Assembly (NCBI RefSeq): GCF_026210795.1
Contig: NC_089435.1
Location: 4,464,001 to 4,528,000 of the forward strand
Direction: 5' to 3'
Length of the DNA stretch: 64,000 bases
From: Rhizophagus irregularis
Lineage: Eukaryota
Each line of letters opens with the position of its first letter. Within the stretch, counting starts at the first letter, position 1. Positions 1-22,199 of the stretch are shown here, in pieces. The notes beneath the pieces are model-generated. The model was not told the origin of the DNA and did no database searches. It saw only the letters and a list, made by a program, of their open reading frames with translations. A program made the translations under genes and the position numbers.

Positions 1-2
1 TT

Positions 3-329: not shown

Positions 330-338
330 TGCTCAGTC

Positions 339-2255: not shown

Positions 2256-2286
2256 TTGAATTTTATTCTAATTTAGTTTAAATACG

Positions 2287-4459
2287 ATGTCGACACCAAT
2301 TGCAATTTATACTCCTTCAGAGCCTACTGGACCGCTTCCTAGGGATTTGCGTGATATGAATAATATACCATTAGTTGCGGTAATTAAGGATCTAACAGAT
2401 TTTTTAACTGTCAGTGATCGCATGGTTGTTAATCGAGATGTACAAAATGCAAACCATCATCTTAAACATGCTCTTAATTTATTAATTCATCGCTGTAGAG
2501 AAACATACGAAGAACGCGATATATTAAAAGCAGAACGTGATCGATCTCGAAAAGAACGTGATGAATTACAAGATGAACTCGAGGTTCAAACGGGTTTGTT
2601 AGGTCTTACACAAGATGAGCTAAATAACGTACAAGATACTATTACTAGTTTAGAAGCTAATTTGGCTGAATTGGAACGTGAGTTTGGTGGTATGCGGACG
2701 ACTAATCGTCGACTTCAGCAGCAATATAATCTTATGAGAGGAGAACGTAATAGAGCTATAGGTGAACGTAATAGAGCTATAGGCGAGCGTGATGTGGCAC
2801 GAAATCGGCTTGTATATGCCAATAATCGGGTTCTTTTTGGAATTCGGACATTGGGACGTCTTAGGAATCGACTTTTCCAACAAATAGCCGCTCTGCGTAT
2901 CCAAGTACAATGGTTTCGGATTAGACAATTGAACCTTCCTCCACCTCCTCTCAACCATCCACAAAATACGATATGGCTGCCGTTGGTATAGCTGCCCCCA
3001 TATTTCATGGTCGGGAAGATGAAGATCTTAATCTTTTTATTGATAACTTTTTAGGGTATATTAATACCGTTGGTATTGATCCATTGGACGATGCCGGTGC
3101 GCCTCCTGGTCGGGTGCGAGCGATGGGGGTTCTTCGTAGCTGTATGAGAGATGAAGCGGCGAGGTGGTTTGATGCAGAACTTACTGGAAAAAATTGGGAA
3201 CTCTCGAATATTCGGTTAGTGGCTACTGCAAATGGTGGAGCCGGTGCTACTCGCCGAGGCGTTCAGAGCTTTAGCTGTTCCTGAGGTTGCTAATGGATTA
3301 CATGTTGGTACTTACTTACCCGGGTCTGATGTTGATGCATATTCAAGGATTTTAGCTAATGCGGCGAGAACCGTTGGAGAAACATTTTTCCCATCACGCG
3401 CTGATATCGTTAGAACGAATTTTAAAGTTGAAGAGCAGTGGAGGCGTGCGGGCGGACGTCCTACTCATCAACCCGTTAATGGGTTGGGAAATCATGGAGG
3501 TCCATTTAATGCTGCTGTCCAGAATCAACCAATAGTCTTACAGGGGATTCTCCTGGATCAAGCATTTATGCATATGCGTACAAATTTTCCAACCATCGTG
3601 GAAGAAAGACTTCAAATACGATTTAGTAACCTTTACCAGGAACAAGGTGAACCTGTTCGATCTTACTATAAGCGAGTTGAGAGGGCTGGGGATATTGTAG
3701 GATATAATCGAATTATGGTTACTGACCAGTTCTATAGAGGACTTTTGCCGGAAAACGTTATTGAAGCTTCCAGAATCGGGCGGCACCTCTTAATACATTA
3801 ATCGATAGATTGAGTGATCTTGAGCGACGAAAGGGCGAAATGTTCTATGGATTACAAAGGCGTCAGGGTATTGAAAAGGCTAAAAAGAGGAATTGGCTGG
3901 CTATACTCATCCCGTGACTCCACACGAAGGTGCTGTAATACAAAGGTCGACAGACGTTATTACTCAAGAACGATTACAAGAATTGCTCAAGGCACAAGCC
4001 GAGGAACTTACCAAGAATTTCCAGGCACAATTTAAACAATTACAAGCATCTAAGCCAGTTCGTAAACCACCGGTCTATAGACAACAGATTAAACCTGTTC
4101 GGTCAAAGCCACGGCCACGCGTTGTTCAGGATCCTGATTGGGATGATGGTTATGTAGATCATGATTTTGGTGATGACCCTGGTGACCCTGATGCTCCTGA
4201 GTGGACTAGTGAGGATGATCAACATGTTATTGATCTTATTATGGGATATGAGACGTCTAAAAGATTTCCAAAGAGACTTCAGAAGGCTAAAGATAGACGC
4301 GATGATCTGGAATTAGCCTGAGCAATGAGAAACCTCGATCTTAATGATGATGCTATGGATATTGATACTAATACCGCGAGTTTTGATGACTTGAAAATTG
4401 TTCCCGATGAGGAAGGTGGTTTTCGGATTTGTGCGGTTCGAAGTACAAAAAAAAAGTAA
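2287..4459 (+). pseudogene. Coiled-coil + Ty3/gypsy-like Gag capsid polyprotein (frameshifted)
   Basis: Overlapping ORFs 2287-2991, 2973-3284, 3232-3801, 3893-4321. APIFHGREDEDLNLFIDNF...SCMRDEAARWF resembles the CA N-lobe; LYQEQGEPVRSYYKRV...DQFYRGL resembles the Retrotrans_gag major-homology region. Frame continues past TGA 4319 to ...RSTKKK* at 4459. Confidence 0.7.
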
Positions 4460-4522
4460 ACTCGGATAAGGGTGTAAAGTATCTCGAAACTTCTTAAATC
4501 TGTTCCAAAAAAATCAGTTAAA

Positions 4523-5179
4523 ATGACTCCTATCAAGATTCCTGTGAAGGTTACTAGTAGTAAGCCCACACTTATAAAAGCCGTCACCAAAAATGATTCA
4601 TTAAGTTTATTAAGGTCTGCAGATTTTAGGAAATTACTCCGCGAGATTCTTCGGGAAGAATTAAAGTCTGCTCGTAAAAGTACGGAGATTCCGGAAGACC
4701 TAGTTGAGGAAAAACAAGAAGAGGATATCAGGGAAGATGACCCGATGGATATTGACATAGCTCGTTTGGAGAATACTAAAGATCTTTTAGCGCTGGATGG
4801 GAACGTCAATGGGATAGCAATTCAGTGTTTAGCAGACACTTGTGCTAACGCGTCTTTTATTCAGAGGGAAGCCGCTGAAGAATTAGGGTTGGATATCGAC
4901 AAGAGTATTACACATAACATATCCGGCGCTCCAGGTTCTGGTAGGACATTCGGCATGGTAAAAGGTGTGTCAATCAAACTAACCCCTGATTGTGTAATCA
5001 CTGAGAATCTCGCAGTTTTAAGCGATTACAAGCATAGGGAGATTGGATTGAGCCGGACGTGTCTGAAACGTTACAATTATGATGTCCATGAATCACGTGA
5101 ACATATCGCCCTTACTTGTAATGAGAAGAATGTTTTTATCCCGATAGTTTCTGATGTGAATCGAGGAGACAAAAAATAG
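4523..5179 (+). CDS. Retropepsin-like aspartic protease
   Basis: EDDPMDID linker, then LDGNVNGIAIQCLADTCANASFIQREAAEELGL...ISGAPG...EIGLSRTCLKRY; retropepsin pattern with DTC at the DTG position. Confidence 0.8.
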   Translation: MTPIKIPVKVTSSKPTLIKAVTKNDSLSLLRSADFRKLLREILREELKSARKSTEIPEDLVEEKQEEDIREDDPMDIDIARLENTKDLLALDGNVNGIAIQCLADTCANASFIQREAAEELGLDIDKSITHNISGAPGSGRTFGMVKGVSIKLTPDCVITENLAVLSDYKHREIGLSRTCLKRYNYDVHESREHIALTCNEKNVFIPIVSDVNRGDKK

Positions 5180-5193
5180 GGAATATTTATTTT

Positions 5194-6296
5194 TTATTCC
5201 CAAAATTTGCGAATTAAATCGGGAACATCCTCCTCTAATCTACTAGCGGGTTCCCAAGTGGCTTCGGTATCTGGGTATCGTTCCCACTTGATTAGATACT
5301 GGTCTTGACCCTTCCTGATGCGATGCCGGAGTATCCGCTCAGGTACAAATCTTCGGGTTGGCCCTTGCCCTTTATCACGGACTCAAGGTGGGAGATGCTC
5401 ATTTTCTGGAACAATCTGCAACTCTTTTCTTTTCGAGTGTACGCACATCTGGATACACCTAGACGCCCGTGTGGTCCATCAAGAAGATACGTAGGAGGCT
5501 GTTCGGGTGAGAGGATCATTTTTTTGATGACACGGATATTGGGATTCCATCTTATGTCACCTGTACGAAATTTTCCATGGAGTTTATTCCCGAGTACTGA
5601 AATAGGTTCGTCTAACTTGACTCGGACATGTATTCCTTCAGAGAGAAGTTCCGTCTTTTTTGACACCTTGGGTGACCCAGTCGGAATGTCTGGAGGATTT
5701 CTTTGCCAGATTTCATCTATTTTACTAACCACATCATGGAAATCTTCTGACCATTCCACGGATGTCACCCCAGTCTTCAACTCCTGTGCCACCATTCGTT
5801 TTAGGAGAGGTTCCTGGATTGCTTGGATGGCTCGTTCAGGCGTATGATTGCTGTTTGTGTCTTCTGGTTCGCCGAACCTCATCATTACCCCTAGGCTGTT
5901 CAGGAAAAAATCACGTACCTGGTCGTTAGTGAATTCTGATCCGGAGTCTGTCTCTATTCGATGTGTTGGTGGCTTAATGCGATTTCTTCTGTAGATTTTA
6001 ACAAATCCATTGAGAACCTTATTTGCGGTTTTATCCTTTAGGGGCTCTGCATCGACTCGTTTACCCGCGACTTCTACCACTACGAGGAAATAGTGGAATC
6101 CTTTGGGGTCGACTGGCATCTCTGCGAGATCTGCCTGATGCGTCGCATTTGGTTTTCATACAACTACTCGTGGACGCTCTGATGACTTCTCCTTTAGGGG
6201 CTTTTTGTATAGGTTGTAGTGCTCCTCACCTTTTAGAATTCGTGCTGGTACTCCGGAGAGATTGTAGTATTTGTAATAATTCTCTAAATGCGACAT
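5194..6296 (-). pseudogene. rve (DDE) integrase with C-terminal chromodomain, Polinton/adintovirus-like
   Basis: ATG at 6296; HQADL (D1), IETDSGSEF (D2), ERAIQ (E); in another frame the C-terminus reads QYLIKWERYPDTEATWEPASRLEEDVPDLIRKFWE* (chromodomain). One in-frame stop and frameshifts. Confidence 0.88.
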
Positions 6297-6340
6297 ATTA
6301 CGACAAATTAAAGGAAAGATTTTGGACTTCAAATCTTAAG

Positions 6341-6661
6341 ATGACACGATTTTACTGCCTAAAGTGTAAGAAGGAAACCGAGACTGCTAGTGAAATACAA
6401 GATATGACCACAAATGGGCGTTACCGGCTGCATGGTGATTGCACAGTTTGTGGTATGCATAAGAATACTTTTACTGGGATAGACTGGGTTATCAAAAAGA
6501 AAACCAAGGAGAAGAAAAAAGAAACTGCGGCTAAAAGACATCAGACGGCGTACAATCGGCAATGCAAAAAACTCGGGCAGAAAATCTTAGATTCTGATGA
6601 CACGTGTAAGCAGTGTATTGATAAATGCCTTAAGGAGGCAAAAAAGAGGAAGACGGATTAG
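6341..6661 (+). CDS. Small Zn-ribbon protein (DUF5679-like, seen in Polinton/adinto-like elements)
   Basis: MTRFYCLKCKKETET...NGRYRLHGDCTVCGMHKNTF; the likely start is ATG 6341 inside ORF 6023..6661. Confidence 0.7.
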   Translation: MTRFYCLKCKKETETASEIQDMTTNGRYRLHGDCTVCGMHKNTFTGIDWVIKKKTKEKKKETAAKRHQTAYNRQCKKLGQKILDSDDTCKQCIDKCLKEAKKRKTD

Positions 6662-6670
6662 TACCGCCTT

Positions 6671-7186
6671 CTAAAAGTATTCCTCATCATCTGAGTCATC
6701 GAGAGATACCTCTCCATCATCTGATTCATCATCCGAGTCGTCAGGAGTGCGACCTTCCTTAAGCAATTGGATGTTGTACGTTATTTGAGTCCATTTCTCC
6801 CAGTCGGACTCTTGCGTTATAAAGCCGCATCTGAGGAGTGCTCTTTCTATTACTACCATCCCTGCAAACCTGGTGTATTTTTTCTGATCGGCTTCATTGA
6901 AATTGTCAATGGCTTCTTTGTAGTAGTCTACTGCCTGTTTGTATACCTCTTCGGCTTCTTTATGCCGCTTCCACAACTCGGCTTTACAACAGTTATACCA
7001 GAGTCTGTTAATCTTGAGATGTTTTCCGAATTCTTTAACCGGAAGGTTTCTGACCATCTCTGCTACTATGTCCGGGTCATTGAGGGGTGATGCCTGAATT
7101 TGGATCCATTTACGGATTCCATAGATGTCTACAAGATCAAGCCCGAGGTCTTCGGCAAGAGAAGTGGCGGCGTGTAAGTTTATCAT
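6671..7186 (-). CDS. Hypothetical protein with acidic tail
   Basis: Intact 171 aa ORF converging on the Zn-ribbon gene with a 9 bp gap. Confidence 0.6.
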   Translation of the reverse strand: MINLHAATSLAEDLGLDLVDIYGIRKWIQIQASPLNDPDIVAEMVRNLPVKEFGKHLKINRLWYNCCKAELWKRHKEAEEVYKQAVDYYKEAIDNFNEADQKKYTRFAGMVVIERALLRCGFITQESDWEKWTQITYNIQLLKEGRTPDDSDDESDDGEVSLDDSDDEEYF

Positions 7187-7251
7187 TGTATGTTACTTAT
7201 AGTTACCTAATCTTCAATTGCCGAATATATTTTTTCTGACGGGGGTAAGTG

Positions 7252-7560
7252 GTCATAGTTCGGGTGCCATAGTTCGGGTGCCATAGTTCGGCTGCCATAG
7301 TTCGGCTGCCATAGTTCGGCTGCCATAGTTCAGGACATAGGGAATCATACTTGGAGGGTCTAGGTGAGTATATAAAGGGTAATCATAGCGTGAATCGGGT
7401 TTTGGGGTCTGAGGGGCTGACTAAGGCTGCCATAGTATTATTATAAGATTTTTCGTACTATGGCAGGTACTATGGCAGGAGATTCTGTTTGATTTCGGCT
7501 TTATTCACGTTTTTATTCCGTTTTTAAGTAGTCTGCCATAGTTGCCATAGTTGTCATAGT
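7252..7560. repeat. Subterminal 14-bp tandem repeat (GCCATAGTTCGG(G/C)T, about 6 copies) plus dispersed GCCATAGT/ACTATGGC motifs
   Basis: Tandem copies at 7252-7340; the core recurs in both orientations at about 7428-7560. Confidence 0.9.
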
Positions 7561-8086
7561 AAGTTATATATAAGAAAAAATGTAGAAAAAAAATAAGTGG
7601 AAAAATACCGTGGCAGACTACGCGTACTGCGGCAGGTAAACCTGCCCCACGGAGGGGGGATGTAGGTACTGCGAGGCCGTTGAGGCCGAGGTGGAGGAAC
7701 GTAGTGACTACACTACCAGCCCGACGACTCTGAATACATAATCTGGCTACTACACTATAATCTACCCCTTTTATTTTGATGCTATCTCTATTCACATTCT
7801 AGCTATATTTTTATACCTTTCTTGATATCTGTATTTTTCTCTTATGTATGATTTTATTATCACGTTATAATCTAAATACCCCACACTTTAACCTAGGTAC
7901 CTCTTTTTTCTTCCTGTTTCTACTCTATTTGTAATTTAAGTTATATATTGTTGATACTGACCTTTCACGTCTGATTGAATGTCAAATTCTATATTGAAGT
8001 ACTTACCCTTTGTGCCTATTTGGTTGCCTTTCTAGATGCTGAAATGTGGTAAAAAAATATGGTGTCGAGTGGCGCAGTATTTCGAT

Positions 8087-8360
8087 GTAAATCTGCGATT
8101 AATTTTGGCTGGACACTATGTCATAATTCCAGCCGATCTTTTGGGCATGTGATTTGAGGATCCAGCCTGGCGCCATGGTAGTGACCTGATAGTGACCTGG
8201 TAGCTACCGTAGAACTGTCATGGAACTGGCAGGGAACTAGAGTGGTTCTATTAGTTTGCCAGTTCCAGTTCACTTTTATGCCAGCTTGGATGCCGAAATA
8301 TTACCTAAAGTTCTGGCTGAAATTATGAAATAGTGCTGGCCAAAATTAATCAAAATTTAC
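8087..8360. repeat. Long imperfect inverted repeat (fold-back), arms about 80 bp
   Basis: gattaattttggctggacactatgtcataattccagcc pairs with ggctgaaattatgaaatagtgctggccaaaattaatc; inner pair ggaactggca/tgccagttcc. Confidence 0.8.
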
Positions 8361-8402
8361 TACACATCATTTTTTTTTTCTAAAATGGATGTTGCGAGTA
8401 GA

Positions 8403-8760
8403 TACGTATATTGTTAGGAGTGTCATATGATAGTAGTCCCAGAGGGCTCAGTGACAGGTGATTCTTTACGCATATATTGTTAATTTATTGCGCCTAAAGT
8501 TTTTGTGATACTCTACGCATATATTGTTAGAAGAATCATATGATAGTAATGCCAAAGGGCTCTGTGTCAAGTGATACTCTATACACATATTGTTAGGAGA
8601 ATTATATGATAGTGATCTCAGAGGGCTCGGCGTCAGATGACATCCAGCACAGTATCAATTCAGGGATATTCTATTAGTTCACCCACCATGAATGCCAAAT
8701 TATTGTATCCAAAAATCTTGCTGAAATTATTGTTAACTTACTGCGCCTAAATTTTTGATA
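8403..8760 (+). repeat. Degenerate ~65-bp tandem repeats
   Basis: Unit like atattgttaggagtgtcatatgatagtagtcccagagggctc…gtga in three copies; attgttaa-tta-tgcgcctaaa-tttttg occurs twice. Confidence 0.75.
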
Positions 8761-8945
8761 TCACGTGGCCAGGCTTTAGTCTTCCCTTTTCGCAACTTTT
8801 AAGGGATATTTGAGAAATATTTGAGTGGCATTTGGGGTTTGGGCTAGTGGATCATTTGGTTAGAGAATTGGAGGTGCCAACTTCGTATCTCTTTTTGGTA
8901 TACCTTTATATTACGTGAAGGCTATATCATACCCGAGTACTTATC

Positions 8946-9005
8946 TAAAAATGAAGCCTTCTGCCATTTTTATATAATATAATTCCGCAAAAGGCTTCAT
9001 TTTTA
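8946..9005. other. Hairpin/palindrome: 19-bp arms (1 mismatch), 22-nt AT-rich spacer
   Basis: TAAAAATGAAGCCTTCTGC-cattttt atataatataattcc-GCAAAAGGCTTCATTTTTA. Confidence 0.9.
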
Positions 9006-9140: not shown

Positions 9141-12100
9141 ATGCATACACCAACTAATTTTGACCAAACTGATCACACCGGAACTCTCACCCGCTACGAC
9201 AGCGCCAGCCCTTTAGCTGGTATCCCATCACGTAATGATATTGTGGCAGAATTCGATAATGGGATGACCACTATACTTCAACAAAGCCTATCCGGCAAGC
9301 AACCCATACATTTCATGCCTACTGAAGTTAGTGATGATATCGAGGGGTATTCCTCCTATATCTTGCATATCACTGGTTCTTTGATTAATAGGCAAAAGGT
9401 GGTCGTGAATATCACAGCATCCGACCATTCTTCGATGTTGAAGTACCTGAAAACTATTCCCCCTCTTCACTTAAGACCATATTAGCACGCATTTTATCAG
9501 TTACACTCAAAAATACAACAAAATTTGGGGTTGAGGATATTCGTGCTTTTCCACTTCAGGGTTATTATACAGAAAAGAAAGCATATATCCGTATAAGAAC
9601 GTGGAACTACTTTGATCGGTATAATGCCCTAAAAGCAGTTCGTGAAGTCGGCATTCGTACAGTCTCAGATGATCTAAACTGCCAGTATTATTACTGCAAA
9701 GTAGCTCGTGAAGAACGATTACCTCTTTCAAGCTGGGCCGTATTAAGCAATTATTTATACGAATTCATCCCAGATGGTACTTACCTATTTCGACTATCTG
9801 TGGATAATTATAATCCAATAATATAAGTGAGGACAATTATAATAATCCATTATTCTCCTCAACACTTACGAGGGATCGAACCCTCATACTCACATGGGAT
9901 ATTGAGACATATAGTTCACGAAAAACAGGCGAGGTGCCTAACGCAAAATATGATGAAGACAGAGTGTTTATGATTTGTATGACAGTGCATTGGAAAGATG
10001 ATCCCGAACCGTTAAAACAAATCTGTCTTGTCGATGTTGAAACAGCACCAGAGCCAAGCTGAATCACAATTGTATGTGGATCCCAGACAGATTTACTAAA
10101 AGCATTCGCTTTATGTTGGAAACTTCTAGCTCCGGATATACACATAGGCTTTAATGATTCTCAATACGATTGGTGGTTTATTGTAGAGAAAGCTAATAAA
10201 TTAGGAGTTCTCGAATGGATGTTCAATCATATGTCATTCAAGCCATCGAGCCTGGAAAAAATTATAAAATGGGAATATCGATATAATATGATAAAAGTAA
10301 ATGATGGAAAATTCCATTCGAAACATCTTAAAATTCCGGGATGTGTAGCTATTGACGTCCGACCCTGTTTTATGGGAATTTATTCTAAGGCTGAAAAGAG
10401 TAGTTTAGCATTTTACCTAAATGAATGTGGGCTCGAAAGTAAAATGGATATGCCTATTCACCGCATGAACAAATATTATGAAAGGGCATTAAAAAAGCCA
10501 GATTCCATGTTGGCCGAACAAATGCGCGAAGTGGCCAAATATTGTATTATCGACGCTCTTAGTTGCCAGCGGTTAATGGTAAAGCATAATGCAATTAATG
10601 AGTATAGAGAGGTGGCATCCATAGCCTTCTTATTATTATTTGATGCACATTATTTTGCGGGAGGTATGAAGGTTTGCAATTTTTTAAGTGCTAGCGCATG
10701 GCAAAGAGGGATCCTAACCAGTATGATTTCAAGCCAACAAACAGAAACTGGAAAATACCCTGGAGCCTATGTTTTCCCACCAGTAAAGGGTCTCGAAAAT
10801 AGACGTCCTGTAACTGGTTTAGATTTCGCATCGTTATATCCGAATCTTATCATAATATATAACCTCTCACCCGACAAAATCATTTTATCTCAAGAGCATG
10901 CCATATCTGTAGAACAAAGCGACAAAAAGCTTCATAAGATAGAGTTTCTATTTAATAACAACCCCTAACGTGCCTGGTCAGTTCAGCATAACAATATTTC
11001 TGAAGAAAAAGGACTCTATACTAGCGTATTGGAATATTTATCAGGTAAACGAAATGAGATGAAGAAGCGTCTTGCACCTTTGAAAGAGAAAAAGGAAGAC
11101 ATGGACTTGGTAATAAGTTCAATGGGTAAAAGTTTGTCATTATCAGAAGCCATCGAGCAGATCTTAGCGAATGCAGAGGTAGAAAAACATAACGGTTTTA
11201 CTAAAAATTTATATCATTTTATTCATAAAGAAAAGCATGAATTCATAGCAGAATATGATTCTATTTGTTTCGACTGTTCTTGTTTGGATAAGAAACAATA
11301 TGCTTTCAAGATATATATGAATTCATTCTATGGTACGGCTGGAGATAGTAAATCCCCTTCTTCTTACGTGAACTTGCTGGGGGTGTTACTTCGGCTGGAC
11401 AGAGAAATATCAAACTCGTTGCGGATTTCGTCAAGAGAAAGGGATTTAGGATAAAATATGGTGATACGGATTCCTTGTATTTAGTCTGTCCAGAAGAACG
11501 CTTCCAGAGGTGTGATGAGGCTTATGATAGTGGCAACGGGATCTCAAAAGAAGAATATTGGTCTCGAATGGTAGAAATCTCTATGGTGAAAATGGAAAAA
11601 CTTCGTGATGAAGTTAATGACTTTCTCAAGGAAGATAACGGATCCCCTTATCTTAAAATGGCATATGAGGAAGTCTTATTTCCGGTAGTATTTACTGGAA
11701 AAAAAAAATACTATGGTATCCCGCATGAAAGCAAGCCGAACTTTAATAAAAAGCTTTTCATTCAGGGAGTTGAGGTTGTAAAGTGGGGGCAGTCTAAACA
11801 CTTTCGTGGGATGGGTAAGAAGGTCATGGAAGAATCTATGAGACTGGATAATACTCGCACCTTGCATCAGATTGTGGAGAACGTGCTTAAAGAAACCATA
11901 AATGATATTCACAGATAGATCTTAATGGGGTGATTAAAACTGCTGTATGGAAGCCTGATAAGAATAACAAGAGTGTCCAGCATTTTATTTCACAAATGCG
12001 AGACAGACATACTCGTGAAGAAGCAGATGCCAAACGGCTCATAAAAAGAGGGCTAACATCTGAGCCTTATCTTTATGAAATCCTAGAACCGGGTGAGCGT

Positions 12101-12937
12101 TTTGAGTATGTTGTAGTTGAGAATGATTCATCAGATAAGGTCGGAAATAAAATGGAGTATCCAGAAGTAGTGAGGCGATTAGGTAAAAAGATCAATATCA
12201 GCTATTATCTGAAAACCGTCGTCAGCCTTTGTGCACGATTTATTAACTATGATGAAAGTTTCCAGCCATCATCTGAAATTGTGCTGGAGGCCTTAAAAAA
12301 GTTGAAAGATGCTAATAAAGCGGGTGATAATAAAGCGGATGACGGTGGGGTGGATGGAAATGACCTGGATGAAGACGAAGAAGATGAAGACAAAATGGAT
12401 GAAGATGAGGTATCAAAAATAAGAGATGCCTTAGCGCAGAAATCGGCTGAAAAGTGGATTAAGGGGTATATCAAAAGCCTACGTGATGGTCCGAAAAAAG
12501 ATAAAACCATCATATCTCATTTATGGGAAGGGGCACGCATTTACGTGAAAAAAATATTTGATACTACTTATGCCGACAAGGGAGAACACCTAACTAACAA
12601 TGCTTATTACCAATCATTCCTCAATGCGCTAGATAAGCAAGAAGAATCCATCCGCTTAAAACTTTCATCATTGCTTAAAGAAATTTCTGAGGTTGATATA
12701 GAGTATAGAGACAGTATGTATAAATTAGTTACTAAGAAGCGAGCAATGTCCTTAGAACAATATTTAATATCATATTATTTGGATGAGTGTAAGCTACTAG
12801 CAGATTTCTGAAACACATGGTACAAAGTAGTTGGCCTAGAAATTATACGCTATCGAACATTATCGAAGTTACAGGATGACAAAAAAGATGATTCGTCCAA
12901 AGCGGATATAGACGAGATCATCGAATTATATGGATAA
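9141..12937 (+). pseudogene. polB: Family B DNA polymerase, nucleic-acid-primed (Pol delta/NCLDV, asfarvirus-like type), intronless and disrupted
   Basis: Exo[10 protein letters not shown], ExoII IGFNDSQYDW, ExoIII YCIIDA, region II RPVTGLDFASLYPN, region III KIYMNSFYG, region [16 protein letters not shown]; several stops and frameshifts. Confidence 0.93.
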
Positions 12938-12950
12938 ATACTCTTAGCGG

Positions 12951-13481
12951 TGTTAACTGATTCAGTACGTTGAATAGATTAACTATGATTTGCAGTCAGG
13001 GAGATTAAGTACGTTTAACTATGACTGAAATCCAATCAAACAAGACACGCTTAAAATAGGGAGTTCGTTTATAGTGTAAAAGGTTATACTTTATTATAGA
13101 ACTTTATAATTACAAGAATAAGAACTAATAGGAACTAAGGTTAACTAATTCGAACTGAAGGAACTTAACTTATAACGAGGGAAAATACCAACGTTATTTA
13201 TATAAAAGTTACTACATATAAAGATATAATAAATATAATAGATATAACTAATGTAATAAATATAACTAATATAATAAATATAATAAATAAATTAAATATA
13301 ATAAATAAAATAATTATATCGATTATATTAAATATAATTAATATAATAAATATAATAGAAATAATAGGCTAAGGAGGCTGCGGCTAGGTCGGCTTGGCAC
13401 AGTTGGGTACAGTAGATCCTAATTTTCCACATGATCTTCTGGCGCAGTAAGTTGTAACTCTACACGTGACTAGGGGTAACA
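12951..13481 (-). mobile_element. Solo LTR (TG...CA) with 4-bp TSD GCGG
   Basis: gcgg|TGTTAAC ... GTAACA|gcgg (12947-12950 and 13482-13485); internal TATA-like and AATAAA motifs on the minus strand. Confidence 0.75.
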
Positions 13482-13586
13482 GCGGGATGTGGCAATTTCA
13501 ACTAAGAATACTTAGCCGTTAAGGCACTTCGCATAATAAAATTTACATATTTTTTCTCGTGTAATAATACCGGCTAACTTCAATTT

Positions 13587-14645
13587 CTATCTTCGAACTT
13601 CTGGCCTCTGATCATAAATCCCAGCCTCAGAAATGTTCGGAGACGATAAAAAATAGTTCCAATTAGGAGAATACTTGGTATTACTTTTTTCTTTCGGCTT
13701 AGCACTCCACAAATTCCATATTTTTTTCCCAAATACGAAGTACATAATTGCAATCAGTAAAAAGATAAGTATGGAATATATTATCAACGGCGACATCAAG
13801 GAGCTCGCAACGATAGGAATAGCTGATGGTAAAGATACCGTTTCTGCGCCATCTACAGAAATAATTTGAGATGAATCATTCATAGGCGGGGGTGGAGGGG
13901 GTATTTCATTATTTTCCTTCAATTCTAACTGGTCCCTGAAGGACCTATTTTCCTCCCTTAATTTTGATCACGCTGAATACAAAGCATCTATTTCCCGTCT
14001 AAATATGCTATTTGATGACTCTATCCTCTTTTCCATACATTCTATTGTATATTCTTTTGAATTACGGTCCTCCTTCACCTGTTCCAATTCAAGCCTGAGA
14101 GAATCAATCTCTTTAGGATCGGATAAGCTTATTTGGACTGGCTCCTCTATCACCTCTCCCATTACATCCAAATCATGATATGTACGCTCTAGATCTATGT
14201 CCTCCAACTTACCTTCCAATTCACGTATTTTAGTTTCAAGAGAAAGAATCTGGACCTTGTCAGCGGATGAAGCTTTCTGGGCCAAAGTCGCCTTTCTCTT
14301 CAGTGTTTTAATCTCTGATTTGAGCGATTGGATTTTAGCAGTATATTTGACTTCAAGCTCACGTTGACTTTTGGAATGAGACTTCCGTTCAGAAATAAGT
14401 TGGGATCTAACCTTAGTACTGGACGCGTTTAACTGGCTAGCTTTATTTTCAAACTCCTTTTCTCGCTCATTGTACTTATCTACCAGCTTTTCGCTGAGAT
14501 CATTAATTTCGGCTTTAGATTTAATAGCAGAATATAATTTTTCTTTAAGCTCTTGCTCATATGTACCACCAAGTCGTTGTCTGACCCCCTTAAAGGAATC
14601 ATTATCTTTATTATTGATATTTTTCAAGATATATACATTGGTCAT
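13587..14645 (-). pseudogene. Coiled-coil protein with polyproline and a C-terminal transmembrane segment (one premature stop)
   Basis: ORFs 13968..14645 and 13587..13922 are in frame across TGA 13968 (…LYSA*SKLREENRSFRDQLELKENNEIPPPPPP…LIIYSILIFLLIAIMYFVFG). Confidence 0.65.
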
Positions 14646-14707
14646 AGCCTTTTTTTTTCGGCTTAGTTGCTAATATAAAAAAAATGTGTCTAAAAATTTC
14701 TGGACTG

Positions 14708-14860
14708 AATCTACCGAAAATATATCGATAGTACTGAATACACCGAATATACCGAATATATCAGATGGATCGAATGTACCGAATGTACCGAAAATAAATC
14801 GATAATATCGAACAAAAATCAATTGAATATCGAAATTATATCAAAAATACACCGATAATT
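14708..14860. repeat. Cluster of ~9-bp (T/C)ACCGAATA-like motifs between divergent genes
   Basis: caccgaatat accgaatata…cgaatgtaccgaatgtaccgaaaat. Confidence 0.65.
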
Positions 14861-14916
14861 TTTCGAAAGATTTTTTTATATCTATCTGTAAAAAATACTT
14901 CGGTATCTGCGTTCAG

Positions 14917-15350
14917 ATGCAACCTCCCTATCAGCTGAAGATATTCAGGATATTATTAAAGCTAAAAATTCAATGAAGCGAGCATCAGAAGCTATGGCTA
15001 ACAAGTACAAAATATCATCACGACGGGTATATCAAATATAAAGAGGAGCCCATCCACAAATAGATCCTAAAGACATAAATCGATTTTCGGAAGAACCTGG
15101 TTCGCCTCAGCAAGCAGACCCTGTGGAATGTAATGTTATTTCTGGAAGTAAGGTAAAAAAGTTTGGAGGAAAAAAAACTAAGTCTAAATCCGTTCGTATC
15201 TCTGAGTTACCTGTTATTCAGACACCACTAGCTTCAATAAGCTCAAAAAGTTTAAATATAAGCAATGAGGAATTAGAAGCATTTTGTGAGAAAGAAGATA
15301 AGAGAGGCGAAAAAATCACAGAAGAAATGAATAGGATACTAGCCACGTAA
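14917..15350 (+). pseudogene. Small putative HTH DNA-binding protein, disrupted
   Basis: LSAEDIQDIIKAK...SEAMANKYKISSRRVYQI*RG resembles a helix-turn-helix and runs in frame into ORF 15123..15350. Confidence 0.4.
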
Positions 15351-15463
15351 AAGATATTTTTCATTTAGTTCATTATAACGTAATAACAACTCCTCACATA
15401 ATTCATTGAGATTTTCTTTAGACTTAAGAGTGTTATATAACATTCTTTCAAGTTCCTCATAAC

Positions 15464-16279
15464 TCACTTTTTTTTTAATGTCTCATTCGCGCTCAAGTCC
15501 ACTTGGTCCGGAATCGAGGATTCATCACATTCGGGAGTAGTGGTTATACAATTCACCTCGAGCTTGTTCTTGACTTTGTGCATGGTGACTGGAATAATTA
15601 AATCCTTACCGTTATGAGAAATCTTTAATTCATCTTTGTCCCAGTCAATTGCACATTTATATTTCTTAAGAAGAGGATTCGAAAATATTAGCATTGGCTT
15701 AGAGTATTTTACAACTATAAAATCTTCATATATAGTAAATCTAGGAGCTAAGGTTATCGGTAAATTGTGGACGACTCCAATAGATTCAACTGGCACAGTA
15801 GCAATACCACTAAGATCATGTTTTATGGATTTGTCGATTCTATATCCTACGCGTTCAACAATATCAGGTGTTATAATGGGAAGTTCGGCACAAGAGTCCA
15901 GTGCCATAGCTGGAATTTTAAGACGCTTAATCTTGCATTTTATAGATGCAATGCTTGTGGTGGGCTCCTTCTTTTTGACGAAATCTATCTCCATAGGTCC
16001 ATCCAAAACATCCTCTTCATCTGAATCTTGAGCTAAGGCAGGTGCACACTTTTTAGCTTGCTGAATTATGTACGGAAGATAATTCTCAAATTCAATTTGA
16101 ATGATTTTGCGAATAGTTTCTTCTAAAGACACACGCTTACCATGACTATTTTTATCTGATGAGGCATTATGGGTAGAAGACAAATTATTGTCTTGCTTTA
16201 CCTTACGAAGATCATATTTATTAGACACCTTAGACTTTGAGGATTTATCAGAATACTCACGTTGCTCAGTGTAATTCAC
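15464..16279 (-). CDS. Retropepsin-like aspartic protease (in the -1 frame relative to the upstream Gag-like ORF)
   Basis: DGPMEIDF linker; KIPAMALDSCAELPIITPDIVERVG...LSGIAT...MLIFSNPLLKKYKCAIDW. Confidence 0.82.
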   Translation of the reverse strand: MNYTEQREYSDKSSKSKVSNKYDLRKVKQDNNLSSTHNASSDKNSHGKRVSLEETIRKIIQIEFENYLPYIIQQAKKCAPALAQDSDEEDVLDGPMEIDFVKKKEPTTSIASIKCKIKRLKIPAMALDSCAELPIITPDIVERVGYRIDKSIKHDLSGIATVPVESIGVVHNLPITLAPRFTIYEDFIVVKYSKPMLIFSNPLLKKYKCAIDWDKDELKISHNGKDLIIPVTMHKVKNKLEVNCITTTPECDESSIPDQVDLSANETLKKK

Positions 16280-18687
16280 TTTTTTTTTCTATGACTTATG
16301 TAAATATTCATATCACGATTTCCGGAGTCTGAACCGGCTGATGAATTATCAGAGTTATAATCATTGTCCTCAGGTTTTGATATATCATCATCAGAAAAAA
16401 TGGGATCAGACTGTTCATCTACTGTAGCCATATGAACTCGACTACTTCTGGATTTGGAATCTTTAGCGAATTTAGCCAATAAGGCTTCGATTTGTCCTAA
16501 TCTTTTTTCCAATCCTCCAAAAGGTGAGGACTCTGAGCGTTGTCGCTATGGTGTTTTGGTATCTCTGGTATCTTTTCTAGCAAATTTAGCTAAGTGGGCT
16601 TCAATTCGTTCTAATCTTTTTTCCAATCCTCCATTATTATAGTCTGAGAATTCTGAACACTGATACTGAGCTGATTTGGTATCTATGGTATCTTCTCTTA
16701 CGAGTTTGGTGAGTTTGGCTAAATTAATTTCGATTACTCCTAATCTTTTTTCCAATTCTTGATTAATATAATTATCAAAGATTGAAGCATTATTTGAATT
16801 AACTACATTTTCTGATAGCTGTAAACGTTGGGCAAGTTTAGAATGCACCTGCATTGATTCCGCTAACTATGCCTCCAAAGAAGCTATTTTGGAATTTAAC
16901 TTTTCAAAATTGGCCGAGACTTCATTATTCTGGGAGTGTAGTACTTGAGCCGGTTGTGTTAGTTGTGCTTGTAAAGAGGCTATTTGGGAATTTAATTTTT
17001 CAATTTCAGCTGAAGAATTATTCTGATAATTTTGGCCTCCATTTAAATTGGAAGCACGCTCCAGCCACATGTCTTTTAGATTTGTAAAAAATGCATTAAT
17101 ACCAGCAGGAGCGATAGCCCGCATCTATGTATAAAGATTACCTGACAAGTAGTTCTTAAGAAATCCTATAGTTTGTGCATCACCATCCGCTACACCTAAT
17201 AATAAAGGTCGGATTCTTTTTTCATAAGTATCTGGCGTGTCTGAGGGTAGAAATTTTTCTTGAGTTAATCTTTGAAGTACCGACTGCCGACTACCTACTG
17301 TTTCTCGTTGATAATGTGATCTCATCCAAGCACGTAAAGTAGCTGGAGAATTAATATTAGCATTTCCATTATATGGATCTTGGGCAGGAACTGGTAAATA
17401 TTTTCCTCCCATCTGAGCTTTAAAAATATCACATTTGACAACATCATCGAAATCTCCAGTATTTGCATTTTCAAGAACAGTCATATGTTCTTGTGCAAAT
17501 GATATTGATTGAATAAGTCTATCTAAATAATCATCAGGAGGTTCTTGGCCTATATAGGGCTTAGTTTTTGCAAGAACCGGTGCAATCATAGTTAATACTG
17601 GTAAACGTCTAGCATCTGCCATATTTCCTAATGGGTTATTCTGAAGCGCCAAAATTTGTCCCTGCAAATTTAAAATATTCTGGTTTCTTTGCCTAATCAC
17701 TAGCTGGAAAACAAACTTTTCACGTAGCAATCCACCAATGCGGGTTTGTTTTCTTGCTATAATAACTAACATCCTATTTACCTGGTTTTGGGCATTGGTT
17801 TGCAACTGTCAGGTATTTTGCTGAAGACGGTTAGTATCTCGCTGATACAATAGCTGTTTAGCAAATTTTTCTCGCAATAATCCTTGGACACGCCTATTTT
17901 TATCCTGATATGAAAACATCCAGTGACGAGATTCTTGTCTCTCATTATTATAGGCCAGCATAGCCAAGTTCTGCTCTCCTTAAGCATTATCTTTTTCCCT
18001 TACAGTTCTTTCAGCCTGAGCTCGGGATTCATTTAATAACTGCTGGAATCGCAGATTTTCATTTCTCATATCCCTTAACTGCTGTATAAGAACCCATTCC
18101 TGCTCATTTGTTTCGTTTAATATGTTCTGATATTAATCCCGCTCAGTTGTGGCATTTTGCAAAGTAACCCAAATAGTATTTAACAAGCCCCTGATACCAT
18201 CTAAAATATTAATAGGATTTGGCAGTAGTGTACCGGCACCTCTAATATGATTTTCAATCTGATCTAACCCTCTGTTAATATTTCCAATAAGATCAGCTGT
18301 TGCCATATCTAAAGCATTTATTGAGATTTTTTTATTTATGAGAATCCGGATTCTTGCCTTAAGACGTTCTACCTTATTTTCAAGCTCTATGATTCGGCCA
18401 TCTTGAATAGACCTAACCTCATCTTTGAATTTTTTATCTTGTTGTAAGATCCTAAGCTGTTTTCGCAAATCAGATATTTCCGATTTAAGTTTCTCTACCT
18501 CTTTTTCATGGGCTATGATAGTATTATCCTGTAATGAGATAGTTTGATAACATTGCTCTAGCTCCTTCACAAGAGAACAAAATTTTTTCTCATTACTTTT
18601 ATTATTGGAAATTTCATCCTGAAGCTCACTACGAAGCTCCTGGTTTGTATCTAAGAGTTGTGAATATGCTGGATCGAATGTTGACAT
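16276..18687 (-). pseudogene. Coiled-coil + Gag-like capsid polyprotein with internal repeats
   Basis: Collinear ORFs separated by single stops; KPYIGQEPPDDYLDRL and LQRLTQEKFLPSDTPDTYEKRIR are Gag-like; LEKRLxxIExxLAK repeated three times; ends …SHRKKK*. Confidence 0.65.
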
Positions 18688-18737
18688 GATATTATTCAGC
18701 CCTGATTTATAGAACCATCATATAATCGTGTTTAAGA

Positions 18738-20395
18738 ATGAGTCAACTGCAGATTGTAATAAATCCCGATGAAGAGCTCCATATAGTCTGTAGACTTCTG
18801 TTTTATAATATACCTGGCTTTTATACCAATGCCAAAAACCTATATAATGCATACCAGAAAGAAGGATATTCTTTTCGATTGTGAGATATTGCAAAGTGGT
18901 TAGTGTATCAATATATCCATCAAATTTATCGACAACCACTACCATGCAAAGCTGAAGCAAGTTTTTCAAAGATTAAGATTCCAAACAAGGTTCAGCAGTG
19001 TGACATTCTGCTCCACACTCACGATGATCAGGATGGTAGAAGGATATTCGTTTATACTTTTCTAATCATAGATGTGGCAACACGTTTTAAGGACGCACGC
19101 TCAATAATATCGAGAAATAGTTTAGAAATCTGGAATGCGATAAAAGAAGTATTTGAGGATCTTTCTAATCCTCTCACATGGCCAACATTATTAATGACTG
19201 ATGGTGATGCTTCGTTTCGGAGTGCATTCTTTTGAGAAATGCAACAATACAATGTCCCAATACGTGTTGTCGACCTTTATAGTTTTGAGAGCTTGGCTTT
19301 GATTAAAGCGTTTAAGAAAAGAATAGCAGAATTAATATATAAAGTCCAATATGCTATAGAGGGACGATTAACTGACGGAGAGCGATCAAGACTATGGAAA
19401 AAAATTCTTAAGAAGTATATTGATTATTTGAATAACAGTAAGACACACCTTATTGGGATGTCTCCAGCTCATGCTATGACTTTGGAAGAAGTTAAATCAA
19501 AACCTTCTAGGAAAGCTAAGCGCACAATTGGAAAAGATGAGGAGATAAAGTTACAAAAGGGTACAGCGGTTAGATATTTGTTAAAACCAGGTGAATTGGA
19601 AGGAGACCATAGGCGTAGAGCAACTGATCCATACTGGAGCTTGCGTGTCTATAAGATAAAAAGAGTTGTTATTAGGAAGAACCCGCCACAGCCAATCTTA
19701 TACTATCTTGAAAATGGACCTATTGAATCTACTGCTCATTTGATGGGACGAAATCCCAAAAGACCTTTCAAATTTGAGGAACTTCAAGTAATCGAGGAAC
19801 CTGATAAAATCAAATATCCACCAGATGAATTTATGTGGAAATATTATCCTACTGAATTCGTTCACTATGTTCAAGTTGCTAATGATAAATTGACTAAAGC
19901 CGATCAATATGCTAAGAAGCGTGGTGGCCATTGTCTGGAAAAGACCGGGCGAATAAATGGACATAATGTATACCTCTGGTCCTGTGAAAATGGTGTGCAT
20001 CAATGGGAGTATCTATTAAAGTATATCATGAAAAAATTTGAGTGGTGTCCTCTATGCCACCATACTACTGAAAGAAATTGCCGATACATTTTTAAGGATT
20101 TGCTAGGCAAGAAATTCCCATCCTGCAGACCATCATTTTTGAATGGAATGCAATTAGATGGTTATAATGAAGAATTAAAATTGGCTTTTGAATATCATGG
20201 ATCCCAACACTATAGTCTTAATTCAATGTTTCATAAGAGAGGCCAGATAGATTTAGATGAACAAAAATCCTGAAGCGAGACATATGTAAGCAAGAAGGTA
20301 TATGTCTTATCTCGGTGCCCTACACATGTGACCTTTTTCCCTACATTAGGTATATGCTAATCAAAAAGGGATATTTGGATGATGCAAGTGGGTAA
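18738..20395 (+). pseudogene. Polinton-type rve integrase fused to a Zn-ribbon + PD-(D/E)XK-like endonuclease domain
   Basis: N-terminus LFYNIPGFYTNAKNLY...AKWLVYQYIHQIY; QQCDIL (D1), LMTDGDASF (D2), [25 protein letters not shown]; then [10 protein letters not shown]...[10 protein letters not shown]...WCPLC...[21 protein letters not shown]; stops near 18886 and 19233, frameshift near 20270. Confidence 0.85.
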
Positions 20396-20481
20396 CCCAA
20401 TCTATTGGGCAAAGCATTTATTGCCAGAACTTGAGAAATTGTTACATTATTTTTCGATATAATAATTAGTTGGATCAAATC

Positions 20482-21261
20482 ATGAAATACGTAATATTCG
20501 CAGCGGACGAAGTCAAGCCCTCGAAAAAATATCAGGGTGATCTTCATGCACCGGCATGGCCTTTTCGAATTATAGTTGCAGGGGCTAGCAATTCGGGTAA
20601 AACGAATATGATTCTAAACCTGCTGGTGATGAACAAATTTTACTATATGTTTAGGAAAAAAAAGAGTTCTAAAATAGGTGAGCGCAATGTTAAATGCAAT
20701 GACGTGATACTTTGTGGCCACCATCTTAACGAGCCTAAATATAGAATTGTTCGAAACTTTTATAAATATCTTGCGCAAGATAAATCCAAGCCATACTATT
20801 AAGATATTACATTCTCTACACTCACTCCTGATAAAATTCCAGATCCAAAAAAGTTCAATGTTAAAAGAAGTAAACTAACGATATTTGAGGATGTCTGCTC
20901 AGACCCTCCAGCTATACAGAAAAAAATTATTCCATATTTTAGTAGAGGTCACCACGAGAATATTTCTTCTATTTATGTCTCACAAAAATTTCACAGGATT
21001 TCTACGGATATTCGTGAAAATGCAACGCATATTGTACTCTTCAGTAGTGGAGGTTCAACCCGAAAACTTGCTAACATTATAAGTCCTTATACAGATGCTG
21101 ATCCGCACAAAGCTTCAAAGGTCATCGATGGTTATTTGAAATAAAAGGAATTTGTGGTCATCGATATAAATAAACCGAGATCTGAATCCTTTTCACTTTG
21201 ATGGGACACTCCGCTCAATTTGGAAAAGGAAATCGAATCGTTGGGCAATACTTCCAACTAG
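20482..21261 (+). pseudogene. Second A32-like packaging ATPase, disrupted
   Basis: APAWPFRIIVAGASNSGKTN; read-through gives TIFEDV, YFSRGHHENISSIYVSQ, DIRENA, EFVVIDI; three in-frame stops. Confidence 0.88.
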
Positions 21262-21288
21262 CTGTGCCGACAACCAATTACCTGATAA

Positions 21289-21993
21289 TCATTTACCTGC
21301 CAAATCCCGAAATGTGTATTTTTTCTGAACCTCTAGGTCATATTCAGATTCTCTATGTCGTTTCGCCCATAAATCTCTTTCACAATTGCTGGAATACGTT
21401 TCCGGTTCTGTAGTTACATCACTGTACTTCGTGTAAGAAAGAATCTGATCAACAAAAGCGATAATTTTTCTATCCTTGGCAGAGATAACATCCTCCAAAT
21501 GCCGTCATTTATTCTCTAATAGGTCAATAGACTTTTCAGCCAATGCAAGAGCTTTTTTCGTATCAGGGATTATACTCTTGAAATAAGCTACCGAATTTGA
21601 TAATTTGGCGACTTTCTCACCACTTTCCTCTAAAGACTTGGTCATAGCTACCTCACGAGACTTATACTGTTCTTGCAAATCGAGAAGCTCTTCAATCTTT
21701 TTTTCCAATACCTGCTTTGATATACACAACTCCTCATTTTCTTGCCTTAACGAAGTTTCACAGTCGCTAGTAATAGGCTTCATCTTCTGACACTTTTTTT
21801 GCTTAATATAATTTCCAACCGCCTTATTTAACAAATCTTCCACTTCGGGATGGATACTACTTGCCTGTTCTATCGATAATGGATGTTTTTGTGAAGTAAG
21901 ACGTTGCCATGTATCTATTTTGATGGAACGAAAAAGCTGGTTAAGTTGCTTTGAGTAATATACGTGAAAAGATGGCGTTAGTATACCGGTCAT
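21289..21993 (-). pseudogene. Hypothetical coiled-coil protein (one premature stop)
   Basis: ORFs 21505..21993 and 21289..21498 are in frame; convergent with ATPase 2. Confidence 0.5.
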
Positions 21994-22199
21994 TTCTTAT
22001 AGATAATAAAAAATTTTGAGAATTTTATAGATTCAGAAATTTGCCAAGAAAATTTTCTGGGACATAATGATGTTTCTCGAGGAAAATGCTAAGAATTTTT
22101 TTATTATCTAATACACTGCTTTATTAATAATATAACTTAATAAAAATTACATGTATGAAATCTCTATTCTATGAATTTTTGGGGGTCGTAACTGTTACT

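What the first reader, a model, noticed from the sequence alone, without database searches (positions are those of the whole stretch)
9141..13587. The element-associated polymerase is NCLDV/asfarvirus-like, not protein-primed, and abuts cassette 2 once a solo LTR is removed
Seen: an intronless PolB of about 3.8 kb with WDIETYS, FNDSQYDW, DFASLYP and YGDTDS. Excising the 531-bp solo LTR leaves only ~115 bp between the polB stop and the stop of the convergent gene. Established: Polintons use protein-primed PolB; these motifs match Pol-delta/NCLDV-type enzymes (the asfarvirus resemblance is recalled, not searched). Inference: a ~14-kb integrating element has captured a giant-virus polymerase.
Basis: partly seen in the sequence, partly recalled or inferred. 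Interest (0 to 1): 0.75.

Follow-up and report, generated by a model that had tools for sequence, protein, structure and literature searches.

The report
Fungal Maverick-like element, giant-virus polymerase
In a root-symbiotic fungus, a broken copy of a DNA-copying enzyme related to that of African swine fever virus sits in a conserved gene order with retrotransposon-type capsid and protease genes, an integrase-like gene and a packaging ATPase, which likely makes many of the 'giant-virus fossils' in these genomes copies of one self-copying mobile element rather than traces of separate infections.

Summary
Observation confirmed: polB at 9141-12937, a 531-bp solo LTR with a GCGG duplication, and 114 bp left between the two stop codons. 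This polB copy is dead (4 frameshifts, 3 stops). It is asfarvirus-type: ASFV polymerase E 1.5e-108 versus Pol delta 8.5e-14. Glomeromycota copies form one clade inside asfarvirus-like viruses. That origin is already published (fundsbetavirus; 15-33 copies per Rhizophagus genome). Not found in the papers searched is the context. All 6 of 6 metagenome loci reaching past the polB stop continue into the same cassette. Intact copies about 67% identical keep the order polB, coiled-coil/TM gene, small ORF, Asp protease, Gag. At least three other Rhizophagus loci link polB to the integrase. polB is under purifying selection between copies (dN/dS 0.09-0.27). A covarying palindrome precedes it, and in one locus an origin-binding-type replication gene lies upstream. 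Best reading: a Maverick-derived, self-copying element family with a giant-virus polymerase and retrotransposon Gag-protease in place of pPolB and jelly-roll capsid. Open: ends, TIR/TSD, primase, capsid, and an integrase whose catalytic Glu is a conserved Lys.

The parts
8948..9003 (.). Palindrome (about 17-bp arms) around an AT-rich TATATAA core, about 140 bp upstream of polB; likely replication origin or promoter element
   Evidence: Present in 4 of 4 metagenome loci that reach 200 bp or more upstream of the polB start (L001, L005, L011, L016; tandem copies in L011 and L016) and at window 63.87-63.93 kb. Arms differ in sequence but stay complementary: covariation 0.525 vs 0.181 shuffled, 0/500.
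9141..12937 (+). Asfarvirus-type family B DNA polymerase, intronless, pseudogene (4 frameshifts, 3 in-frame stops)
12951..13481 (.). Solo LTR, 531 bp, TG...CA, 5-bp terminal inverted repeat, 4-bp GCGG target duplication (12947-12950 and 13482-13485); later insertion into the element's spacer
   Evidence: empty sites in L014, L020, L023
13587..14645 (-). Coiled-coil protein with a hydrophobic C-terminal segment (likely tail anchor), convergent with polB; one internal stop
   Evidence: homolog is a 405-aa frame in L010 (35% over 99 aa, E 7e-11); atlas gives only generic coiled-coil hits
14917..15350 (+). Degraded small ORF; intact 149-aa counterpart in L010-L012
   Evidence: tblastx 14994-15047, 61% over 18 aa, same position; no Pfam or PHROG hit
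15464..16288 (-). Retropepsin-like aspartic protease (D-S-C motif), in the -1 frame overlapping the Gag end at an A-run
   Evidence: Pfam Asp_protease E 7.5e-4, below its curated cut-off; 72% identical to L010; same -1 overlap in L010 and L011
16276..18687 (-). Coiled-coil + retrotransposon Gag-like polyprotein in one frame, 6 internal stops; the L010 homolog has a CCHC zinc knuckle
   Evidence: atlas top hits are Retrotrans_gag clusters, score 0.95; no Pfam hit for the window piece; knuckle
18738..20395 (+). rve-fold integrase with D-D-K in place of D-D-E, fused to a C-terminal zinc-finger/nuclease-like domain; broken here
20482..21261 (+). A32-like packaging ATPase, 3 internal stops
   Evidence: Pfam Pox_A32 weak on the window pieces, E 1.8e-7 on the intact 95% relative P0124
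21505..24261 (.). Repeated region continuing past the ATPase (coiled-coil ORF 21505-21996 and others); probably still element, variable between copies; right end not located
   Evidence: Contigs of 4 runs cover 30 of 30 bins, many at 80-95% identity; one contig joins 21995 to 24157 with 5417 other letters between

Best explanation
This is a dead copy of a multi-copy Glomeromycota element family in which an asfarvirus-type DNA polymerase sits in a conserved order with a Gag-protease pair, an integrase-fold gene and an A32-like ATPase, and the family likely copies itself as a Maverick-derived mobile element. Shown: polymerase type, one clade across six fungal genera, gene order at other loci, purifying selection, the palindrome, and the -1 Gag-protease overlap. 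Inferred mechanism: an ancestral Maverick-type element (rve integrase + ATPase) swapped its protein-primed polymerase for an RNA-primed-type asfarvirus PolB. It would then replicate from an internal palindromic origin opened by an origin-binding helicase, with the primase likely borrowed from the host or encoded outside the stretch seen. It would re-enter chromosomes through its own atypical D-D-K integrase or through D-D-E relatives in trans. Gag and protease replace the jelly-roll capsid and cysteine protease, and may package or chaperone the DNA.
For: PDB: ASFV polymerase 367 bits vs Pol delta 54.5; family profile 1248 vs 99. Trees: 25 fungal-type rows in one clade, FastTree 1.0; 15 rows, SH-aLRT 99, inside the clade with ASFV. 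Of 24 metagenome loci, the 6 that hold the polB stop plus downstream DNA all continue into cassette 2; L010-L012 (one near-identical family, about 67% nucleotide identity, intact 1216-aa polB in L010 and L011) keep the order as far as each contig reaches (L010 and L011 to Gag, L012 to the protease). Of 17 NCBI integrase loci listed, 2 lie within 5 accession numbers of a polB on the same contig (GBC36908/GBC36912; CAB4476468/CAB4476463), and 2 lie on contigs of the same length (16,394 and 30,681 bp) as published polB contigs. Eight gene models fuse integrase and ATPase. dN/dS is 0.09-0.27 in 17 of 18 pairwise comparisons, the other saturated. The ASFV genes flanking polB have homologs in 44 and 36 of 66 viral loci, while the three window segments tested match none of the 66 loci.
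Against: No TIR or TSD found and neither end located. Catalytic Glu replaced by Lys in 44 of 45 close relatives that cover all three positions. No primase and no capsid gene found. The origin-binding gene lies upstream in only 1 of 3 loci with enough flank (L005 yes; window and L016 no) and is identified through a 52-aa tail. No single fetched contig other than the window holds polB through ATPase. 12 of 17 integrase loci had no known polB neighbour, though only 10 of the 120 listed polB clusters were looked up. L007 and L024 are polB fragments with unrelated flanks. The context of the second fungal polB sub-clade (P0029-P0035 group) is unknown.
Confidence: 0.68

Rival explanations
1. The unit is a small integrating dsDNA virus (Polinton-like or a strongly reduced asfarvirus relative) whose jelly-roll capsid genes lie outside the stretch seen or are too divergent to detect; Gag-protease is an accessory.
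For: A32-like ATPase retained and multi-copy; another copy has 5.4 kb of unseen DNA after the ATPase; a 2026 preprint places Glomus/Rhizophagus A32 ATPases with Maverick-Polintons; Mycodnaviridae contigs pair NCLDV polB with polinton-like integrases.
Against: No capsid hit among the window ORFs scanned; Zhao et al. found no MCP in five Rhizophagus genomes; integrase and ATPase queries found 0 loci in IMG/VR.
Confidence: 0.14
2. polB is passenger cargo in a non-autonomous or integrase-dead DNA element that spreads by another route (in trans, by the C-terminal nuclease, or by segmental duplication), and the polymerase does not copy the element.
For: D-D-K integrase; no primase, TIR or TSD; the same palindrome and replication-gene tail occur at 63.9-64 kb with no polB beside them; cassette 1 has ATPase, Gag, protease and integrase but no polB of its own in the window.
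Against: Strong purifying selection on polB even between close copies (dS 0.15-0.46, dN/dS 0.14-0.27); both catalytic Asp of the integrase kept; order kept across about 35% nucleotide divergence.
Confidence: 0.12
3. The polB copies are independent relics of repeated asfarvirus-like infections (the reading of Zhao et al. 2023) that landed by chance among transposon debris.
For: Published interpretation; a genuine 1.5-Mb asfarvirus-like insertion exists in one strain; truncated copies with unrelated flanks exist (L007, L024).
Against: One clade across six genera; 6 of 6 loci share the downstream cassette; no match of the window segments tested to 66 viral loci, whereas true asfarvirus-like contigs keep ASFV neighbours.
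Confidence: 0.06

Closest known systems
'Fundsbetavirus' PolBs of Rhizophagus irregularis (Gong et al. 2020, PMC7017919; Gallot-Lavallee and Blanc 2017, PMC5294986; Zhao et al. 2023, PMC10640383)
   Same: Same asfarvirus-related, multi-copy, often broken polB genes (15-33 per genome).
   Different: Those papers treat them as virus fossils. Gong's Supplementary Fig. 2 shows only coiled-coil-type neighbours (SMC_N, Smc, Mplasa_alph_rch) and no integrase, Gag or ATPase link. Zhao's ViralRecall-based screen reported A32 as not detected.
Polintons/Mavericks (features as listed in Jeong et al. 2023, PMC10748475; Glomerales Maverick expansions noted in PMC11952901 and PMC8647823)
   Same: rve-fold integrase, A32-like ATPase, a family B polymerase, multi-copy, size class of 13-25 kb or more.
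   Different: Polymerase is RNA-primed-type asfarvirus PolB, not pPolB; no jelly-roll capsids or adenovirus-like protease found; Gag and Asp protease present; integrase D-D-K; no TIR found. Known PolB swaps in nematode Polintons are pPolB for pPolB.
African swine fever virus DNA polymerase (PDB 8YWG; PMC11417396, search listing only) and uncultured asfarvirus-like viruses
   Same: Best solved relative, E 1.5e-108; sister groups in the trees are large viral contigs with ASFV-like neighbours.
   Different: The viral neighbours of polB are absent; the gene sits in a fungal repeat family.
Ty3/Gypsy LTR retrotransposon gag-pro
   Same: Gag-like domain, CCHC knuckle in L010, Asp protease in the -1 frame at an A-run.
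   Different: No reverse transcriptase or RNase H hit and no flanking LTR pair; the integrase is on the opposite strand and its relatives look Maverick-type (that likeness is recalled).
Mycodnaviridae of zoosporic fungi (PMC13533422, passages)
   Same: NCLDV-type polB together with a polinton-like integrase in fungal genomes.
   Different: Those are giant viruses of up to about 350 kb with MCP and many core genes, and the paper calls other fungal EVEs distant from them.

Membership tests
Asfarvirus-type PolB (fundsbetavirus) | Closest to ASFV polymerase; groups with asfarvirus-like viruses | tested here: met
Host Pol delta / alpha / zeta | Best similarity to a cellular replicative PolB | tested here: not met
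   Pol delta 54.5 vs 367 bits, 99 vs 1248; no zeta entry among the 60 of 125 rows shown; not included in the trees
Polinton/Maverick | Protein-primed PolB | tested here: not met
   PF00136 and PF03104 hit; no protein-primed family hit at E 0.01; TPR1/TPR2 not examined on a model
Polinton/Maverick | Retroviral-like integrase with D-D-E | tested here: inconclusive
   Fold matches retroviral integrases (model pLDDT 69.6); triad D-D-K in 44 of 45 close relatives, D-D-E in 30 more distant ones
Polinton/Maverick | Genome-packaging ATPase | tested here: met
   Pox_A32
Polinton/Maverick | Jelly-roll major and minor capsid proteins | tested here: inconclusive
   No hit in Pfam (44 ORFs) or PHROGs (18 proteins); ends unknown and these ORFs were not folded
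Polinton/Maverick | Adenovirus-like cysteine protease | tested here: not met
   Only aspartic-protease hits
Polinton/Maverick | 100-1500-bp TIRs and 5-8-bp TSD | tested here: inconclusive
   No match above 15 bp exact (24 bp at 87.5%) between 6.5-9.1 kb and 21.2-34 kb; the left end looks truncated, so absence is not decisive
Giant endogenous viral element (asfarvirus) | NCLDV core genes around polB | tested here: not met
   0 tblastx hits of window 1-8900, 13490-25000 and 60000-64000 to 66 viral loci; no core-gene Pfam hit other than polB and A32
Ty3/Gypsy retrotransposon | Gag and Asp protease with -1 frameshift | tested here: met
   frameshifting itself is inferred from the overlap
Ty3/Gypsy retrotransposon | Reverse transcriptase/RNase H and flanking LTR pair | tested here: not met
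   No such Pfam hit; no second copy of the 531-bp LTR in the window
Solo LTR | TG...CA ends, TSD, empty sites in related copies | tested here: met
   parent retrotransposon family not tested
Origin-binding (UL9/CyRepA1-type) replication protein upstream | Homology of the gene before the palindrome | tested here: inconclusive
   L005 tail matches P0354 (E 6e-9); P0354 hits CyRepA1 at E 4.9e-25, below its cut-off, and PHROG 4913 'replication'; no Pfam hit; the UL9 likeness is recalled

The most novel reading that the evidence does not exclude
A chimeric DNA element with no described counterpart in the papers searched: it copies its DNA with a giant-virus polymerase from its own palindromic origin, loads it with an A32 ATPase into particles built from a retrotransposon Gag matured by an Asp protease, and inserts it with an integrase that works with a D-D-K active site. 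It would be a 'DNA virus in a retro-capsid' that has spread through arbuscular mycorrhizal fungi since early in their history.
Probability: 0.2. Interest if true: 0.93.

Novelty: new variant of a known kind. Interest (0 to 1): 0.76.

Why it matters
It would change how a published signal is read: many of the 15-33 asfarvirus-like polB copies per Rhizophagus genome would record amplification of one mobile element family, not ongoing giant-virus infection. It would be a Maverick-type element running on a non-protein-primed polymerase taken from a giant virus, a gene flow from NCLDV into the Polinton world. It joins retrotransposon Gag-protease to a DNA-virus ATPase and polymerase, and shows a conserved D-D-K integrase. 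It also offers a concrete identity for at least some of the Maverick expansions reported in Glomerales. The claims can be tested at once on existing chromosome-level assemblies.

Tried and rejected
No whole genome is held for this window, so genome-wide synteny could not be counted. IMG/VR scans with the fungal polB, integrase, ATPase and replication protein found no loci. No RNA holder was listed among sequencing runs; expression is untested. Contigs were laid only on 13490-25000, so polB and the LTR site were not checked in reads; contig depth was not used as copy number. The single-sequence fold of P0354 failed (pLDDT 34.5) and was not used. The sigma-70 scan is irrelevant for a fungus. G. 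rosea tags C2G38_2208733/2208747 look adjacent but lie on contigs of different length (143,026 vs 142,917) and were rejected. GES77180/GES77203 (23 genes apart on a 141-kb contig) was counted only as weak. L021 and L022 matched only through a spliced tail of P0006 and were not counted as polB loci. Sequencing error as the cause of the breaks was rejected. Earlier scan notes: three look-ups were empty and one gave unrelated animal Mavericks. Three papers asked for by id were not held, among them Pritham et al. 2007, which reported a Glomus Maverick and may already describe part of this cassette.
Full report
Observation. The window is from an arbuscular mycorrhizal fungus: the best protein hits are Rhizophagus irregularis at 85-93%. 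The four motifs lie where stated. The polB gene runs from 9141 to 12937 and is colinear with single-ORF relatives of about 1216 aa, so it is intronless. It is broken by four frameshifts and three in-frame stops. Three gene models from public assemblies skip most of these lesions, so they are real. Every gene of cassette 2 except the protease frame is also interrupted. The LTR is 531 bp (12951-13481), ends TG...CA, is flanked by GCGG, and leaves 114 bp between the convergent stops. Three metagenome contigs (L014, L020, L023) show the empty spacer.

Polymerase type. Read through with X, the exonuclease/palm part matches PDB 8YWG at E 1.5e-108 (367 bits) and Pol delta at 8.5e-14 (54.5 bits). 8YWG is the ASFV polymerase: the code occurs in PMC11417396 (search listing). 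A 42-sequence profile gives 1248 versus 99 bits. Pfam gives PF00136/PF03104 and no protein-primed family. A FastTree tree of 93 rows (18 of the 68 extracted locus ORFs dropped, mostly near-duplicates and partial ORFs) puts 25 fungal-type rows in one clade (support 1.0). They come from Rhizophagus, Gigaspora, Cetraspora, Diversispora, Paraglomus and Entrophospora. The sister group is uncultured viruses, within the clade holding ASFV (L029 is a full-length match to 8YWG). An IQ-TREE quick tree of 34 of these rows agrees (SH-aLRT 99). The viral relatives keep ASFV's polB neighbours: 44 and 36 of 66 loci have homologs of the 2477-aa and 1340-aa flanking ORFs (pp220 and G1340L, names recalled). The window segments tested match none of the 66 loci. 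The trees hold no Pol delta, zeta or pPolB rows. Paraglomus, Diversispora, Gigaspora and Rhizophagus each appear in both fungal sub-clades, which fits an old, diversified family.

What is known. The asfarvirus affinity is published: Gallot-Lavallee and Blanc 2017 (PMC5294986, passages); Gong et al. 2020 'fundsbetavirus' (PMC7017919, parts 1-2 of 3 of the text and supplement parts 2-3); Zhao et al. 2023 (PMC10640383, parts 1-3 of 5 and a supplement search). Zhao et al. count 15-33 polB copies per genome and read them as widespread, ongoing infection. Maverick expansions in Glomerales are mentioned without gene content in the passages seen (PMC11952901, PMC8647823). A 2026 preprint notes Maverick-like A32 ATPases in Glomus/Rhizophagus from fragmented assemblies (passages). 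Nine literature searches listed no paper that links this polB to the cassette; most listed papers were seen only as listings, and Pritham et al. 2007 could not be read.

Linkage. The metagenome scan gave 24 loci. Six hold the polB stop and downstream DNA, and all six continue into the cassette-2 spacer or gene. L010-L012 are one near-identical family about 67% identical to the window in DNA. L010 and L011 have an intact polB followed by the coiled-coil/TM gene, small ORF, protease and Gag in the same order and orientation; L011 reaches the coiled-coil before Gag and L012 ends in the protease. Two loci (L007, L024) are truncated polB pieces in unrelated DNA. For the far end, 17 NCBI integrase loci were listed. 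GBC36908 (a fused integrase-ATPase model) lies 4 numbers from polB GBC36912, and CAB4476468 lies 5 from CAB4476463, each pair on one contig. These are 88/94% and 80/83% identical to the window, hence other copies. PKC54170 and PKC57876 lie on contigs of 16,394 and 30,681 bp, the exact lengths of two polB contigs in Gong's Fig. S2; that they are the same contigs is inferred from length. PKC54170 clusters with CAB4476468 and may be the same insertion, so at least three other loci are supported. One pair is weak (23 apart). Twelve had no known partner, but only 10 of 120 listed polB clusters were looked up. Eight gene models fuse integrase with ATPase. Contigs of four runs cover all 30 bins of 13490-25000 with many divergent copies, and one joins 21995 to 24157 across 5417 other letters. 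The unit therefore extends past the ATPase and varies. No TIR or TSD was found.

Signs of function in the family. polB shows dN/dS 0.09-0.27 in 17 of 18 comparisons (one saturated), also between close copies. Gag is supported by the atlas (Retrotrans_gag, 0.95) and a CCHC knuckle in L010. The protease overlaps the Gag end in the -1 frame at an A-run in both the window and L010/L011, the usual gag-pro layout (established knowledge), but no reverse transcriptase was hit. Upstream of polB, all 4 loci with enough flank carry a palindrome around an AT-rich core, with arms that change in step: covariation 0.525 vs 0.181 shuffled and at most 0.208 when slid (8 related sequences, structure drawn from the window copy). 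In L005 the palindrome follows the tail of a protein whose longer relative P0354 matches CyRepA1 plasmid replication proteins (E 4.9e-25, below cut-off) and a PHROG 'replication' family. I read this as an origin-binding helicase (likeness to herpes UL9 recalled). It is absent upstream in the window and in L016. The integrase model matches retroviral integrases. Its third catalytic residue is Lys in 44 of 45 close relatives covering all three sites; 30 more distant sequences have D-D-E; 131 sequences were aligned, the rest partial or variant.

Mechanism. Most likely (0.68) a Maverick-derived element replaced its protein-primed polymerase with an asfarvirus PolB once, early in Glomeromycota (single origin shown by the tree; donor and direction inferred). 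It would replicate from an internal palindromic origin (inferred), insert through an atypical or trans-acting integrase (inferred), and use Gag-protease where Polintons have jelly-roll capsids and a cysteine protease (presence shown, role inferred). Polinton features are taken from PMC10748475 (abstract and introduction) and PMC11071308 (passages). It works like a self-synthesizing transposon, but it fails Polinton membership on pPolB and protease and is inconclusive on capsid, D-D-E and TIRs. Rivals: a small virus with unseen capsid genes (0.14), passenger polB (0.12), independent infection relics (0.06).

Verdict. The polymerase's origin is known; its place in a conserved Gag-protease-integrase-ATPase element, with a likely origin module and a D-D-K integrase, was not found in print. 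New variant of a known kind; interest 0.76.

Noticed in passing
window 1032-7186: A second, distantly related cassette (A32 ATPase 39% identical to the cassette-2 family, coiled-coil, Gag, Asp protease 27%, rve integrase, DUF5679) in a different order, followed by 14-bp tandem repeats at 7240-7345 and 66-113-bp repeats at 8407-8661. polB is linked to cassette 2, not to this one.
   Followed up: partly
window 60300-64000, minus strand: Tail of the same replication-protein family at 63956-64000 and the same palindrome, followed by a small Cys-rich ORF, an ORF with a tyrosine-recombinase-like motif (recalled; no Pfam hit) and an Asp-protease-like ORF. Possibly a related element with another integration enzyme and no adjacent polB.
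   Followed up: partly
window 18738-20395 and relatives: D-D-K replaces D-D-E in a whole integrase subfamily reaching Gigaspora and Racocetra (down to 44% identity), while both Asp are kept; a nearby Glu six residues earlier might substitute.
   Followed up: partly
window about 19900-20395: The integrase C-terminus is a zinc-finger plus endonuclease-like domain (PHROG endonuclease hits, best E 2.5e-14) that the more distant D-D-E relatives P0255-P0268 lack.
   Followed up: partly
window 34743-37687: Transposase_21 (CACTA-type, name recalled) gene broken by stops.
   Followed up: no
window 45478-45796 and 49498-49817: Direct repeat pair of about 320 bp, 87% identical, 4 kb apart; possible LTR pair.
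   Followed up: no
window 26214-26675: ORF with a ricin-type beta-trefoil lectin domain.
   Followed up: no
window 42852-44249: Protein kinase-like gene with internal stops.
   Followed up: no
window 54031-54067 and 58437-58473: 37-bp inverted repeat pair, 86%, around a 4.4-kb segment with degraded ORFs; possible TIR transposon.
   Followed up: no
L016 225-399: TGCTATC-rich tandem repeats upstream of the palindrome array, perhaps near an element end.
   Followed up: no
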